Shown here piece after piece: positions 20,984 to 42,411 of a stretch of 64,000 nucleotides of DNA; the stretch's first letter is position 1, and every line of letters starts with the position of its first letter. A program made the position numbers and the translations under genes. The DNA is from the human T2T-CHM13v2.0 reference genome, Homo sapiens. Location: the NCBI RefSeq assembly GCF_009914755.1, contig NC_060934.1. One strand, given 5' to 3'. A model generated the notes under the pieces. The model saw only the letters and a program-made list of their open reading frames with translations. It was not told where the DNA came from and did no database searches.

Positions 20984-22459
20984 CTACACACACTTGTCGG
21001 GGCAGCCGTACTGCAGAAGCACGTTGATGCACTCCTGGCTGGAGGCCTGCCGGGCGTAGGTCAGCGCTGTGTTCCCGTGGGCATCTCGGGCCATGACGTC
21101 CACCCCGTACCAGATCAGGAGCTGCGCCAGGACCACATTCCCCTTGCAGCAGGCCAGATGGAGCGCCGTGCAGCCATCTCCCTCCCCACAGGTCTCGTTC
21201 ACCTCCTCACGGGAGCCATGTGCCAGCAGCAGGATGGCTGTCTGCAGGTCCTCATCAGCGGTGGCCCGCAGCAGCTGCTGGCCCAGGGACAGCTCAGTGC
21301 AGGGTAGTGGGGCCAGAAAGAGCTTCTCCTCATATTTGGAACGGATCCACCGTTCCTTCTCTTCCCTCGTGGACTTTTCTGAGGGTTTTGTCTGCCCCTG
21401 GCTGCTCCCTTCCCAGATGCTGTTGGCTAGGTCATTGCCAATAGATGACATAACCTTCCTGAGCTCAACTGGCCAGTCATCCAGCTCCAGAGATCGCACA
21501 TGGGAAAGGCGGGTGCCAAGACTGTGGTGGATTCCTGAGCATTCAATACACATGAGGACTCCCAAGTTCAAACTGGCCCACTTAGGATTCTGGGTCTCAC
21601 AGTCCACACAGTGGGCGTTCCCACGCATGTTTTGGATCGACTGCAGGGCCATGGCCTTGCTCTGGCTGGTCAGCTGGGACTTGCTTTTACTGCTCTCGCA
21701 TGACTGCAGGCTGGCCAGGATCTGGCTCTGGATGGCTTGGACCCAGGCATCCCGCTCCTCATACGTCGTGGCTTCAAAGTGCCACGTTTGGCCAGTGGCA
21801 GACACAATCATAAAGTTGTTGGTGCTTTTCTTCTTTAGGTGTTTCTTTTTATTGGCATGAGGAGAGGGGGGCGGGTTGAGCTTGGGGCTGGTGGTGCTGG
21901 AGATACTGGGGCTGAAGCATATGGAGTCACCCAGCCCGGTGTCCATGTCCTTGGATAGGCCATTGCTTTTAGAGCTGGAGATGGGTGTGCAGGCCGATGT
22001 GGCTAGGGATGGCCACTTTCCTGGGACTTTGATGGTAGATGTCTGAAGGTCAATCTCTTTTTTATGAATATTCTTCATATAATCACCTAAGCTTGAATAA
22101 TAGGTGAGCACGCCATTGGAACACAGGGTGACGTATTTCTTTTTCCATGTCTTCAGCCATTTCCCACTTCGCTTTAAGAGCATGCCCTGTTTAATGGGGA
22201 TGGCTCTGCCGCTCCCGATGGTGTCAGCATGATTCTCCGGGGCTTTCCTCTCTTTGTCTGGGTCACTCCCTTTCTCAGATGTAAACAGGTTGGACCAGCG
22301 CATGGACCGCTTGCAAACGGGGGTGGGTGTGTTGGCAGTGGGAGGAACACTGAACTGAGGGTCCTCCTGGCTGGTGCTGGGAGTCGATGGAATGGAGGAG
22401 GAATAGTTATTTAAACTCCCACCTCCATTTCTTTTCTTCATAATGTGCACGGTGGAAAC
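20984..22459 (-). CDS. AGAP4: coding exon 8, intronless AGAP1-derived PH-ArfGAP-ankyrin region (491 aa)
   Basis: ORF 20984..22450 in the track. PH motif [19 protein letters not shown]; zinc finger CVDC-x16-CIEC; ankyrin motifs TALHLAC and GNTALTYA; acceptor ttccacacag|GTTTCC. Confidence 0.95.
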
Positions 22460-40400: not shown

Positions 40401-42411
40401 AGACATTTCCTCTACAGTGATGAAATCTCTGGCATTTAAATGAAACCAATAAGCCTACTGGATGTAATATGTTTATGATGCAATGTTTTCTATTTTGAAA
40501 ATTTCAGTTTTTATTCAAGAACCATATTATTACCCAGAATTACTTTTACTTAGATTCATCTCTTTGCAAAATTTTAGAGGCAAACGAACTAATTGTTTTC
40601 TCTTTTCTACCGGCTCCCATCCCCTGCCTCTGCCAGCAGTGTAGAGACTAAAAAACTCCAACTTTCTTTCCTTTTTTTTTTTGTGAGACGGAGTCTCGCT
40701 CTGTCACCCAGGCTGGAGTGCATTGGCGTGATCTCTGCTCACTGCAACCTCCACCTCCCAGGTCCAAGCAATTCTCCTGCCTCAGCCTTGTGAGTAGCTG
40801 GAACTACAGTCATGTGCCACTACGCCCAGCTAATTTTTGTATTTTTTTTTTAGTAGAGACAGCGTTTCACCATGTTGGCCAGGCTGGTCTGGAACTCCTG
40901 ACCTCAGGTGATCCGCCTGCCACGGCCTCCCAAAGTGCTGGGATTACAGGCGTGAGCCACCAAGCCCAGCCAAAACTGTAACTTTCTTATCTTTGAACAA
41001 GATGCTATTGTCAGGAGGGGAAGGGACAAAGGGGGAGCCATGGCAACAAACACTCTTACAGGGAAGGTCTGACATTTTAACCTGCAATCTTTATATTACA
41101 CATTGAAAGTCTACATTGACGTTTCATGTCTTTTGAAAGTTTTGACCATGAACCAATCCCCACCTCTCTTTTAGAACAAGGAGGTAAATAAAGTCTGTTA
41201 AGTCACCAGAATAAATCTGGAGACACATTTTCTGTTAAAGTAAGAACTTTAACAGAAAAGAGCTTCATAGGTAAACTCCTTTGAGAAACCCCAAACACAC
41301 ACACACAACCATTTTTCTGCAGCCCCGGCTGTGACATTTCACACCTTTCACAATTATTTTAAGCACTCTCCTTTTTTCTTTTTCCTTCTGTGTTCAAATT
41401 ACAGTTAGAAGAAACTAAGCAGCTTCTATCAAGGTGACTTAAAGCAGCCCATTAAGAATACCATATAGCCTCTCCCATGGCAAACTCCATTCTGATTTTA
41501 AATAAGAAATCCCCAAATATTTGAATAGGAACTGTCTTGAGATTTGGCTACTTTAACAAAGGAAACAATTAGGCACTTACCTGGTTCCTTCACTTAGGTA
41601 CCATCTGGATAGGTACAAAGAAAAAATAAGATGGGTACTGAAAAGTTGGGATATTTGAGTTTTTATTGAGAAAAGGAAGAGAATAGCTCAAAGAAGCCTA
41701 AACAAAGTCCCACAGGATAATAAACAGAGCTACAGACACTGTTGTCTCACCATCTGTTTGAGAGTTCCTCTGGAATATTGTGCTTGCCTCTGGATTGGCA
41801 GAAAGGTTAAACTCCAAAGCTATATGTATAGAGGGAGAAAAGAAAAAAGATGTAATCATTTATAAAAATTTATCAACTCATTTATTCAACTGCTGCTTAT
41901 TCGACAAGAGCCATAAATAAATGGTCCCATGCCAGCCTGGGAGAATGAGATGAGAGAGCAAGAACTGGGCGATTGGGAGGGGAGGCGAAAAGAAACTGAC
42001 TGGACTCGGTGGGGAAATACTAAGGGGTGGGAATTCAAGGCAGAGCCAGCTTTTGTTCCTGGCCAGCTCCCGGGAAAGCTGGCTACAAGCAGAAAGGAGC
42101 TCGAAGTGGGGGATGCCTCAAAGGGAACCTTGGGGACAGTAGCAGCCAGAGGCAAACCGAGGGTAGATGGCACCTATCACCTCCTCACCTTCAGGCATCT
42201 CCCGGTCACGAACGTGGTGCATGTGGAGGTCCTCACCAACTTCAACAGTCACCTCAGCAGGCTGTACAGCAGCAGCCATGGGCGCTCCTGCCATCCTGTC
42301 CCCAGCTCCTGCCTCATAGATCTCAGATTCAGAGGGACACACCGACCCCTGCTGCTGGTCAAACTCGAGGCTGACGCTAGGGTGCACACGACAGGTCAGT
42401 ATGTTCCCCAT
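20984..42411 (-). CDS. AGAP4: AGAP4-family (CTGLF) gene, spliced CDS of 8 exons, 686 aa: cyclin-Y-like N-terminus + split PH + ArfGAP zinc finger + ankyrin repeats. The exact paralog (AGAP4/5/6/9 etc.) cannot be fixed from sequence alone.
   Basis: Exons 42189-42411, 41751-41819, 39390-39458, 36714-36748, 29079-29179, 26457-26492, 23098-23149 and 20984-22459 all have GT-AG boundaries. They join in frame (585+1476 nt) to give [21 protein letters not shown]...QYGCPDKCV*, which matches my recollection of AGAP4-family proteins. Confidence 0.88.
22560..22875 (+). mobile_element. Alu in AGAP intron 7
   Basis: TSD aaaagatacattttctg on both sides. Confidence 0.9.
23098..23149 (-). CDS. AGAP4: coding exon 7 ([17 protein letters not shown])
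   Basis: ttttatag|AGATGC...TTTGCG|gtaagt; 52 nt. Confidence 0.88.
23672..25960. mobile_element. decayed hAT/Charlie-type DNA transposon fragments broken by four Alus
   Basis: cagtggttctccaaatgtg.tctgtggacc terminus resembling Charlie1; AT-rich internal remnants. Confidence 0.5.
26030..26185. mobile_element. MER20 DNA transposon fragment
   Basis: ctactggtatctagttggtagaggcca..tgctaaac..tgcaatgcacaagacagtcc motif. Confidence 0.65.
26457..26492 (-). CDS. AGAP4: coding exon 6 ([13 protein letters not shown])
   Basis: ttccacag|TGTGAC...CAAAG|gtgagc; 36 nt. Confidence 0.88.
29079..29179 (-). CDS. AGAP4: coding exon 5 ([33 protein letters not shown])
   Basis: ttccccttcag|GTATCT...ATATC|gtgagt; 101 nt. 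Confidence 0.9.
29452..30134. mobile_element. tail-to-tail inverted pair of AluY-like elements: 29452-29760(+) and 29830-30134(-)
   Basis: AluY diagnostics gagatcgagaccatcctggctaac and ggcggagcttgcagtgagccgag. Confidence 0.9.
31240..33527. mobile_element. 5'-truncated, 5'-inverted L1PB element with an Alu inserted at about 31932-32229
   Basis: 31240-32250 is antisense ORF2 RT ([19 protein letters not shown]). 32253-33527 is sense ORF2/3'UTR with an L1PB-like 3' end and an (AATA)n tail. Confidence 0.88.
36714..36748 (-). CDS. AGAP4: coding exon 4 ([12 protein letters not shown])
   Basis: T-rich tract + ttag|TTGTAG...AACCAT|gtaagt; 35 nt. Confidence 0.88.
37888..38605 (-). mobile_element. MaLR LTR (MST-like) interrupted by an Alu (about 38075-38375)
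   Basis: tgatatg(g)tttggatatgttgcccc start; gagccaattaaacctctttt motif. Confidence 0.7.
39390..39458 (-). CDS. AGAP4: coding exon 3, duplicate of exon 2 ([23 protein letters not shown])
   Basis: 69 nt; one base differs from exon 2; same splice sites. Confidence 0.88.
41751..41819 (-). CDS. AGAP4: coding exon 2 ([23 protein letters not shown])
   Basis: atatag|CTTTGG...GATG|gtgaga; 69 nt; symmetric phase 1. Confidence 0.85.
42189..42411 (-). CDS. AGAP4: AGAP4-family coding exon 1 (MGNILTC...DREMPE)
   Basis: ATG at 42411; 223 nt; donor G|gtgagg. Confidence 0.92.

What the first reader, a model, noticed from the sequence alone, without database searches (positions are those of the whole stretch)
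20984..42411. The AGAP4-family gene appears to be a cyclin-Y-like / AGAP1-retrocopy chimera
Seen: exons 1-7 are small intron-separated exons encoding [75 protein letters not shown]. Recalled: this is motif-for-motif the CCNYL1/CCNYL2/CCNY N-terminus (e.g. CCNYL1 [54 protein letters not shown]) and not the AGAP1 GTPase-like domain. The match stops just before the cyclin box. It is spliced to one 1.5-kb intronless exon covering a region that is multi-exonic in AGAP1. Inference: an AGAP1 mRNA retroposed into a duplicated CCNYL locus and took over its promoter and N-terminus. The product would be a primate-specific ArfGAP-type scaffold with the cyclin-Y membrane anchor (Gly2 myristoylation, Cys7 retained) replacing the GLD. 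The family name conceals this origin.
Basis: partly seen in the sequence, partly recalled or inferred. Interest (0 to 1): 0.85.

Follow-up and report, generated by a model that had tools for sequence, protein, structure and literature searches.

The report
AGAP4: cyclin-Y-like head, AGAP1 retrocopy tail
AGAP4 really is a fusion gene whose first seven exons come from a duplicated cyclin-Y-like gene and whose last exon is an intron-free copy of AGAP1 messenger RNA, but this origin was already published in 2008.

Summary
Baertsch et al. 2008 (BMC Genomics 9:466) describe CENTG2/CTGLF1 (= AGAP1/AGAP4) as a retrocopy adding PH, ArfGAP and ankyrin domains to a cyclin gene.

- **Head:** exons 1-7 match a CCNYL2-type cyclin-Y-like locus exon for exon. 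The match covers introns and promoter at about 86% DNA identity.
- **Labels:** the only PDB hit for exon 3 and for exon 5 is Cyclin-Y. No cyclin-box exon lies in the window.
- **Tail:** exon 8 fuses 11 AGAP1 exon pieces, spread over 328 kb of chr2, with no intron.

Details I did not find in print in these searches:
- The retrocopy is cut short at both ends, has no poly(A) tail or target-site duplication, and replaces 1.87 kb of host DNA that includes cyclin exon 8.
- Its splice acceptor was latent in AGAP1 coding sequence.
- A 161-bp duplication gives a repeated 23-residue exon in 9 of 9 AGAP loci.
- This copy has His in place of the ArfGAP arginine finger; 8 of 9 paralogues keep Arg.
- The cyclin-derived head evolves at a neutral rate (dN/dS about 1).

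Membrane anchoring by lipidation is untested.

The parts
42565..46268 (-). Upstream (promoter and 5' flank) region inherited from the cyclin-Y-like host locus
   Evidence: Colinear with the CCNYL2-type locus C10:43.33 Mb at 84-89% in the non-Alu blocks. Segment 43021-43268 occurs only in AGAP duplicons, chr9, cyclin-Y-like loci on chr10, chr2 and chr19, and two weaker chr22 places I did not identify (16 matches).
42189..42564 (-). Exon 1 (CDS 42189-42411). Cyclin-Y-like N-terminus starting MGNILTC, which carries the Gly2/Cys7 lipidation-type motif.
   Evidence: It is 223 coding nt, as in the CCNYL2-type locus. The first 7 residues are identical in AGAP4 and two CCNYL2-type loci.
41736..41896 (-). 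Inserted second copy of a 161-bp segment that carries exon 2 (41751-41819, 69 nt, phase 1) with its own acceptor and donor
   Evidence: 94.4% identical to 39375-39536. It has no counterpart at this position in the CCNYL2-type locus (chain gap). Both copies are present in 9 of 9 AGAP loci that hold this region.
39375..39536 (-). Original copy of the segment, carrying exon 3 (39390-39458). It encodes the ..EFNPS..ASTIF..SQTD motif of cyclin Y.
36714..36748 (-). Exon 4 (35 nt), cyclin-Y-like
   Evidence: The same splice sites occur in the CCNYL2-type loci (35 or 36 nt).
29079..29179 (-). Exon 5 (101 nt), carrying the [10 protein letters not shown] motif of cyclin Y
26457..26492 (-). Exon 6 (36 nt), cyclin-Y-like
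23098..23149 (-). Exon 7 (52 nt), the last cyclin-Y-derived exon. It ends in phase 0, just before the cyclin box.
22529..23097 (-). Host-derived part of intron 7. It carries a later Alu (about 22560-22870) flanked by an 18-nt target-site duplication.
   Evidence: With the Alu removed, it aligns to the CCNYL2-type intron 7 down to window 22529.
22460..22528 (-). 5' end of the AGAP1 retrocopy, now intronic. It derives from the inside of an AGAP1 coding exon (C2:236287003-236287131, from about nt 38) and supplies the polypyrimidine tract and the AG of the exon-8 acceptor.
20984..22459 (-). Exon 8 coding part. It encodes a split PH domain, an ArfGAP domain and ankyrin repeats from fused AGAP1 exons.
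21524..21526 (-). Codon CAC = His507, at the position of the ArfGAP catalytic arginine (CX2CX16CX2CX4R)
   Evidence: motif from Kahn et al. 2008. The codon is CGC in 8 of 9 paralogues, CGG in AGAP1 and TGC in one paralogue.
20663..20983 (-). 3' UTR of AGAP4, derived from the AGAP1 3' UTR after a 908-nt internal deletion. The AATAAA signal is AGAP1-derived.
19347..20662 (-). Untranscribed remainder of the retrocopy (AGAP1 3' UTR). It is interrupted by Alu blocks at 20342-20645 and 19657-20262, each with a 14-15 nt duplicated target.
   Evidence: overlapping AGAP1 coordinates on both sides of each Alu block.
18148..19352 (-). Host sequence downstream of the retrocopy, homologous to intron 8 of the CCNYL2-type locus. 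The junction at 19347-19352 has 5-6 nt of microhomology and no poly(A).

Best explanation
AGAP4 is a chimeric retrogene.

How it formed:
1. A copy of a CCNYL2-type cyclin-Y-like gene on chromosome 10 received a cDNA of AGAP1 in its intron 7.
2. The cDNA is truncated at its 5' end inside an AGAP1 coding exon and at its 3' end inside the 3' UTR.
3. Together with that insertion, or by a later deletion, 1.87 kb of host DNA was lost, including cyclin exon 8. Homology to the cyclin gene then ends 2 kb short of the first cyclin-box exon.

How it is expressed:
1. Transcription starts from the inherited cyclin-Y-like promoter.
2. Exons 1-7 (phase 0 at the end) are spliced to a CAG|G acceptor that already lay latent in AGAP1 coding sequence.
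3. This acceptor keeps the AGAP1 reading frame.

What it encodes:
- The 686-residue product has a cyclin-Y N-terminal region of 195 residues. One 23-residue exon is repeated because of a 161-bp intragenic duplication.
- This is followed by the AGAP1 split PH domain, ArfGAP domain and ankyrin repeats.
- It has neither the AGAP GTPase-like domain nor the cyclin box, and the last 29 AGAP1 residues are deleted.

Shown here: the anatomy, the parentage and the junctions.

Inferred only: that the MGNILTC start is myristoylated or palmitoylated and anchors the protein to membranes. In this particular copy, His507 replaces the arginine finger, so it probably binds but does not activate Arf GTP hydrolysis.
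For: Parent of the tail:
- Exon 8 protein finds AGAP1 (chr2) in separate pieces at 59-90% identity. AGAP3 and AGAP2 score lower over the same parts: 66% against 90%, and 62-63% against 76%.
- DNA mapping gives abutting blocks that correspond to 11 AGAP1 exon pieces between C2:236287040 and 236615376.
- Pfam finds PH, ArfGap (E 1.6e-36) and Ank, and no GTPase family.

Parent of the head:
- Window 18148-46268 is colinear with the CCNYL2-type locus at 85.8% identity.
- Exon lengths and splice sites are shared.
- That locus goes on to exons 8-10. A 65-residue stretch of its exon 9 scores 26.5 bits against Pfam Cyclin (cut-off 21).
- PDB Cyclin-Y is the only hit for exons 3 and 5.

Junctions:
- Host sequence runs to 22529 and AGAP1 sequence starts at 22527.
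- AGAP1 3' UTR runs to 19347 and host intron 8 starts at 19352.

Splicing is old. A chr9 fragment carries the exon 7|exon 8 junction without intron 7 and is closer to AGAP1 than the window is.

Constraint on the tail: dN/dS of exon 8 against AGAP1 is 0.32, compared with 0.55 for a chr1 AGAP1 processed pseudogene used as control.

In print: Baertsch et al. 2008 (passages).
Against: - The classical retroposition hallmarks are absent. There is no poly(A) tail at the 3' junction and no target-site duplication. The two junctions map 1868 nt apart in the CCNYL2-type locus. The RNA origin therefore rests on the 10 missing introns alone.
- The name CCNYL2 for the comparison locus is by recall and by position. 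The tools give no gene names.
- Against the functional inference: dN/dS of the 195-residue head against two CCNYL2-type loci is 1.15 and 0.92, the same as between those two pseudogene-like loci (0.95).
- The residue that aligns with the Ser before Cys in cyclin Y (..RKRAS-C..) is Leu here.
- The arginine finger is His in this copy.
- Within-family dN/dS of exon 8 is 0.51 (45 pairs).
- Five of the ten chr10 AGAP genes are annotated as pseudogenes and one as non-coding (Table 1 of PMC11534156).
Confidence: 0.93

Rival explanations
1. The locus is a transcribed but functionless chimera. The fusion is real, but the open frames persist only because the copies are young, and no selected protein function exists, at least for this copy.
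For: - The head evolves at dN/dS 0.92-1.15.
- His507 replaces the catalytic arginine here, and Cys replaces it in the C10:47.24 Mb copy.
- Against the family consensus there are 95 non-synonymous and 53 synonymous singleton differences over the 10 copies.
- Five of 10 chr10 AGAP genes are annotated as pseudogenes and one as non-coding.
- Baertsch's table notes three in-frame stops in rhesus.
Against: - Exon 8 against AGAP1 gives dN/dS 0.32, below the 0.55 of the chr1 pseudogene control.
- Nine of 10 chr10 copies match exon 8 full length (residues 1 or 2 to 491) in one open frame. The tenth (C10:48.39 Mb) matches in two pieces.
- The 95:53 ratio is below the roughly 3.4:1 ratio of sites, so the family value is about 0.5 and not 1.
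- MGNILTC is unchanged in three lineages, though that is only 7 residues.
Confidence: 0.35
2. The tail came from a DNA-level duplication or exon shuffling of AGAP1 and not from an mRNA.
For: There is no poly(A) tail and no target-site duplication. The 3' junction shows microhomology, as in DNA-repair joins.
Against: Ten AGAP1 introns, together about 325 kb, are removed exactly at exon borders. Independent AGAP1 processed copies on chr1 (full length) and chr4 show that this mRNA is retroposed.
Confidence: 0.02
3. The N-terminal 195 residues are a diverged AGAP GTPase-like domain or a de novo sequence, and the cyclin-Y likeness is a chance match of short motifs.
For: No Pfam family matches exon 1 or exon 5. 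Exon 1 alone finds nothing in the PDB.
Against: - The region is colinear with a locus that continues into cyclin-box exons, introns included.
- There is a 164-residue alignment at 49% identity to a cyclin-Y-like copy.
- No match to AGAP1 better than E 5 was found.
Confidence: 0.01

Closest known systems
CENTG2/CTGLF1 'Type I retrocopy exon acquisition' of Baertsch et al. 2008 (BMC Genomics 9:466)
   Same: It is the same gene and the same claim. A CENTG2 (AGAP1) retrocopy added PH, ArfGap and ankyrin domains to the C-terminal side of a cyclin gene. It is present in human, chimpanzee, orangutan and rhesus, and not in marmoset (passages of Table 2 and text).
   Different: The passages I saw do not name CCNYL2 or cyclin Y. 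They also give none of the following: the junctions, the loss of cyclin exon 8, the latent acceptor, the exon duplication, or the arginine-finger state. Their product is 663 aa; the transcript selected here gives 686 aa. The difference of 23 residues equals the repeated exon.
AGAP1 (CENTG2), the parent of the tail
   Same: It shares the split PH, the ArfGAP zinc finger CX2CX16CX2C and the ankyrin repeats. Identity is 81-94% at the DNA level across coding exon pieces, and AGAP1 is the best of the three multi-exon AGAP genes.
   Different: AGAP4 has no GTPase-like domain because the retrocopy starts after it. The last 29 residues are deleted. The arginine finger is His in this copy. The gene is driven by another gene's promoter.
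Y-type cyclins (CCNY, CCNYL1) and the CCNYL2-type loci on chromosome 10
   Same: The N-terminal region is shared exon for exon, including the MGN..TC start. A preprint describes that start as carrying the myristoylation and palmitoylation signals needed for plasma-membrane targeting (passages).
   Different: There is no cyclin box. AGAP4 has one Cys (C7) where the chrX copy and the CCNYL2-type loci have two. One exon is repeated. Leu stands at the position of the Ser that precedes Cys in cyclin Y. That this Ser is the 14-3-3 site Ser100 is recalled, not tested.

Membership tests
Chimeric retrogene (retrocopy spliced to host exons) | Sequence lacks the parent gene's introns | tested here: met
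   11 AGAP1 exon pieces abut with 10 junctions fused. In AGAP1 they span C2:236287003-236615376.
Chimeric retrogene (retrocopy spliced to host exons) | Poly(A) tail at the 3' end of the insert | tested here: not met
   AGAP1 3' UTR homology stops at 19347 in mid-UTR and host sequence follows directly. The chr1 AGAP1 pseudogene continues at least 350 nt further along the UTR.
Chimeric retrogene (retrocopy spliced to host exons) | Target-site duplication flanking the insert | tested here: not met
   The two junctions map 1868 nt apart in the CCNYL2-type locus (index 38917 and 37048). The insert therefore replaces host DNA and does not duplicate a target.
Chimeric retrogene (retrocopy spliced to host exons) | Host exons are spliced to the retrocopy in a transcript | tested here: met
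   There is a GT donor after exon 7 and an AG acceptor at 22460-22461, and the frame is kept. A chr9 fragment carries the spliced exon 7|exon 8 junction. The RefSeq transcript in the hub's table was not tested here.
[quoted passage not shown] 2008) | N-terminal GTPase-like domain | tested here: not met
   No GTPase family appears in Pfam for exon 8 or for the exons tested. The retrocopy begins in the sixth AGAP1 exon piece of my count, after the pieces that the chr1 pseudogene shows upstream. The N-terminus does not match AGAP1.
[quoted passage not shown] 2008) | PH domain, ArfGAP domain and ankyrin repeats in this order | tested here: met
   Pfam places PH at residues 89-148 (2 stretches), ArfGap at 271-382 and Ank at 398-486 of exon 8. 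The PDB centaurin-gamma-1 split PH domain matches at E 2.7e-38.
Catalytically competent ArfGAP domain | CX2CX16CX2CX4R: four zinc cysteines and the invariant arginine required for activity (Kahn et al. 2008) | tested here: not met
   The cysteines and their spacing are intact, but the arginine position is His507 (CAC) in this copy. It is Arg in AGAP1 and in 8 of 9 other chr10 copies.
Y-type cyclin | Cyclin box | tested here: not met
   No match in the whole window to the cyclin-box part of the chrX cyclin-Y-like copy. Homology to the CCNYL2-type locus ends at window 18148, 2 kb short of its cyclin-box exon.
Y-type cyclin | N-terminal lipidation signal (Gly2, Cys7/Cys8) | tested here: inconclusive
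   Gly2, Thr6 and Cys7 are present and Cys8 is Arg. Lipidation itself cannot be tested with these tools.

The most novel reading that the evidence does not exclude
The chromosome-10 AGAP family is a catarrhine invention in which an ArfGAP module lost its GTPase-like regulatory domain and gained the lipid anchor of a Y-type cyclin. This would make constitutively membrane-bound ArfGAPs. AGAP4 itself, with His507 at the arginine finger, would be a pseudo-GAP that traps or competes for Arf-GTP at membranes beside its active paralogues.
Probability: 0.15. Interest if true: 0.5.

Novelty: already known. Interest (0 to 1): 0.2.

Why it matters
The chimeric origin explains why AGAP4-14 carry 'GTPase domain' in their name but have none. 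It also explains why their first 195 residues resemble no AGAP. This is worth remembering when the 10q11.22 duplicons are interpreted. A 2024 study of these duplicons never mentions cyclin (0 occurrences of 'cyclin' or 'CCNY'). In the search, no listed paper pairing a chr10 AGAP name with cyclin Y or CCNY did so outside a gene list. The origin itself is not new knowledge, since it was printed in 2008. The junction-level anatomy and the arginine-finger difference between paralogues are small additions. They could guide a simple experiment comparing AGAP4 with AGAP6 GAP activity and testing a G2A mutant for localisation.

Tried and rejected
- **Two-Alu 'empty site'.** I first read the two Alus at 20343-20642 and 22543-22876 as the orthologues of two adjacent Alus in the CCNYL2-type locus, with the retrocopy inserted between them. 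This was rejected. The lower Alu sits inside AGAP1 3' UTR sequence with a duplicated 14-nt target. The upper one has its own 18-nt duplication. With the Alus removed, the host intron aligns further, to index 38917.
- **Apparent intron in the AGAP1 3' end.** I read the roughly 900-nt gap between the AGAP1 coding end and the UTR match as another removed intron. This was rejected because the chr1 processed pseudogene carries that stretch in one 2126-nt block. It is therefore a deletion in the AGAP4 lineage.
- **Pfam Cyclin_N over the whole genome**. It found no hit at the CCNYL2-type locus and only E 0.75 at C10:35.58 Mb, so it was of no use for labelling.
- **PDB search with exon 1 alone.** No hit.
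- **chr9 fragment as a retrocopy of an alternative transcript.** The exon 7|8 junction is spliced. The 5' join falls next to an acceptor, not a donor, so that end is unexplained and I left it open.

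
Full report
**1. Observation**

The eight annotated coding parts on the minus strand join to 2061 nt, giving 686 codons and a stop. Every intron has GT..AG. Exons 2 and 3 are both 69 nt, both phase 1, and encode nearly the same 23 residues.

**2. The head is cyclin-Y-like**

- Against every PDB chain, exon 5 (33 aa) and exon 3 (22 aa) each find one protein only: Cyclin-Y chain 9r2i_D, at E 0.035 and 0.00086. 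In one search the tool printed M for the first codon where the protein has L. Exon 1 alone finds nothing.
- The window's own genome could be searched. Exons 1 and 5 as proteins find the AGAP paralogues. They also find three chr10 loci (43.31-43.33, 38.22-38.23 and 39.05-39.07 Mb) at 64-72% identity. Further hits are one chr2 locus (50%), one chr19 locus, a weak chr10p hit, and processed copies on chrX and chr19.
- The chrX copy gives a contiguous cyclin-Y-like reading frame with one stop. It matches PDB Cyclin-Y at E 4.6e-49 and carries Pfam Cyclin_N.
- Used as a query, the chrX copy hits window exons 1, 2, 3, 5 and 7 and nothing beyond its residue 267. In the 43.3 Mb locus it also hits three further exons that hold the cyclin box. 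A 65-residue stretch of that locus's exon 9 scores 26.5 bits on Pfam Cyclin, above the cut-off of 21.
- The in-script joined residues 1-195 align over 29-192 at 49% identity, E 3e-40, with one 21-residue gap at the repeated exon. Nothing better than E 5 turns up against a full-length AGAP1 pseudogene or the AGAP1 exons.

I call the 43.3 Mb locus 'CCNYL2-type' by recall and by position. No tool named it.

**3. The head shares introns and promoter with that locus**

- A colinear chain links window 18148-46268 to the 43.3 Mb locus.
- Over blocks of 400 nt or more, identity is 85.8% (18,293 nt) to that locus and 85.6% to the 38.2 Mb locus. Those two loci are 91.7% alike. The AGAP host copy therefore split off before those two duplicated.
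- Exon lengths are 223/69/35/101/36/52 here and 223/69/36/101/36 in the 43.3 Mb locus, where my script gave no borders for exon 7. In the 38.2 Mb locus exons 2-7 measure 69/35/101/36/52. The splice-site sequences are the same with two exceptions. The acceptor of the 69-nt exon reads AC and not AG in both cyclin-type loci, and the exon-5 donor reads AT in the 38.2 Mb locus.

**4. The tail is an AGAP1 cDNA**

- Exon 8 as a protein finds ten chr10 copies at 94-100% identity. It finds AGAP1 on chr2 in separate pieces at 59-90%. The chr7 and chr12 AGAP genes score lower over the same parts.
- At the DNA level the window reads straight through 11 AGAP1 exon pieces lying between C2:236287040 and 236615376. 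Coding pieces are 81-94% identical; UTR pieces are 88-95%.
- Pfam gives PH, ArfGap (1.6e-36) and Ank and no GTPase family. The PDB gives the centaurin-gamma-1 split PH domain and ACAP1 ArfGAP-ANK.

**5. Junctions**

*5' side.* With a later Alu and its 18-nt duplication removed, host intron 7 aligns to the cyclin-type locus down to window 22529. One G is ambiguous, and AGAP1 sequence starts at 22527, about 38 nt into an AGAP1 coding exon. The exon-8 acceptor at 22460 lies 68 nt inside the cDNA. AGAP1 itself reads ..CCGCGCAG|GTGTC.. at that place, so the site was latent, and it keeps the AGAP1 frame.

*3' side.* AGAP1 3' UTR homology ends at 19347. Host intron 8 starts at 19352, with 5-6 nt shared. 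There is no poly(A).

*Host loss.* The two junctions lie 1868 nt apart in the cyclin-type locus, and that interval holds cyclin exon 8. I cannot tell whether this loss came with the insertion or later.

*Other changes in the tail.*
- Two Alu blocks entered the UTR afterwards.
- A 908-nt deletion removed the last 29 AGAP1 codons and gave the new end ..PDKCV.
- The polyadenylation signal used by AGAP4 is AGAP1-derived.

**6. Other features**

- *Repeated exon.* A 161-bp segment (exon plus both splice sites) occurs twice, at 94.4% identity. It occurs twice in 9 of 9 AGAP loci that hold this region and once in the three chr10 cyclin-type loci and the chr19 locus; the 22 matches found are all accounted for.
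- *Arginine finger.* The ArfGAP motif CX2CX16CX2CX4R needs its arginine for activity (Kahn et al. 2008, passages). Here that residue is His507 (CAC). AGAP1 and 8 of 9 other chr10 copies have Arg, and one has Cys. A second Arg eight residues on is also His, only here.

**7. Selection**

- Exon 8 against AGAP1: dS 0.264, dN 0.085, ratio 0.32 over 448 codons. The chr1 AGAP1 pseudogene control gives 0.55.
- Among the ten chr10 copies the ratio of mean dN to mean dS is 0.51 over 45 pairs.
- The head against the two cyclin-type loci gives 1.15 and 0.92. Those two loci against each other give 0.95 (the first copy of the repeated exon was left out).
- The tail thus shows some past constraint. The head shows none, apart from the unchanged first seven residues.

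**8. Literature**

- Baertsch et al. [quoted passage not shown] They describe the gene as a cyclin gene that gained PH, ArfGap and ankyrin domains. They report presence in apes and rhesus and absence in marmoset (passages).
- Kahn et al. 2008 equate CTGLF1 with AGAP4 and CENTG2 with AGAP1 (passages).
- A 2024 paper on the AGAP duplicons calls them catarrhine-specific. It has 0 occurrences of 'cyclin' or 'CCNY' (term counts over the main text and passages).
- A 2025 preprint states that Y-type cyclins carry N-terminal myristoylation and palmitoylation signals needed for membrane targeting. It names CCNYL2 and CCNYL3 as pseudogene-like (passages).
- Searches for AGAP4 with CCNYL, for AGAP4 with retro/chimeric, for CCNYL2 with AGAP, and for AGAP5/6/9 with cyclin Y found no other paper making the link among those listed (search listings). 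Subscription journals are not covered.

**9. Verdict**

The functional reading remains inference, and three results weigh against a conserved function of the head or of this copy's GAP activity. Interest is low.

Noticed in passing
L019 (C9:85800001-85802379), against window 43268-43021, 23130-21582 and 17713-17165: A chr9 fragment carries about 33-39 nt of exon 7 joined directly to the first 878 nt of exon 8, without intron 7. It is closer to AGAP1 than the window is (87-94% against 82-91% over the same stretches), and at the ..FDE motif of exon 7 it keeps the reading of the CCNYL2-type locus. Its flanks match the window's upstream region (94%) and a downstream AGAP-duplicon segment (89.5%). 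It looks like a fossil of an early spliced chimeric RNA, but its 5' join falls next to an acceptor and is unexplained.
   Followed up: partly
window 21500-21502 and 21524-21526: Two Arg-to-His changes (CGT to CAT, CGC to CAC, both at CpG) are private to this copy among the ten chr10 copies. One is at the ArfGAP arginine finger. The copy at C10:47.24 Mb has TGC (Cys) at the finger.
   Followed up: yes
L018 (C1:178941200-178946058) and C4:68653575-68654198: The chr1 element is a full-length AGAP1 processed pseudogene that matches AGAP1 exon pieces from the first one onward and at least 2 kb of the last exon. A shorter AGAP1-derived fragment lies on chr4. AGAP1 mRNA was therefore retroposed at least three times.
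   Followed up: partly
L009 (C23:64247883-64248650, minus) and L010 (C19:21889793-21890303): These are two processed copies of a cyclin-Y-like mRNA. The chrX one has a single in-frame stop in the frame read, with its first ~29 residues readable only in another frame.
   Followed up: partly
C10:43329254 and C10:38221868 (loci L011 and L030): In both CCNYL2-type loci the acceptor of the 69-nt exon reads AC and not AG. The 38.2 Mb locus also has an in-frame stop in exon 6, a 10-codon gap in exon 1 and an AT at the exon-5 donor. These features fit pseudogenes.
   Followed up: no
window 22560-22870: The Alu in intron 7, flanked by an 18-nt duplication, overlaps the exon 22582-22670 that the hub's table lists for other transcripts. 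This would be an exonised Alu.
   Followed up: no
window 17165-17713: The upper 228 nt of this stretch occur only in AGAP duplicons among the 40 best matches (8 copies, including the window's own). The lower 320 nt belong to a repeat with thousands of genomic candidates. Colinearity with the cyclin-type locus ends just above, at 18148.
   Followed up: partly
window 20984-22459 against AGAP1: Synonymous divergence from AGAP1 (dS 0.26) is higher than for the chr1 pseudogene (0.18). It is also high relative to the roughly 14% divergence of the host introns from their paralogue. Decay of CpG sites in the GC-rich cDNA is my guess; I did not test it.
   Followed up: no
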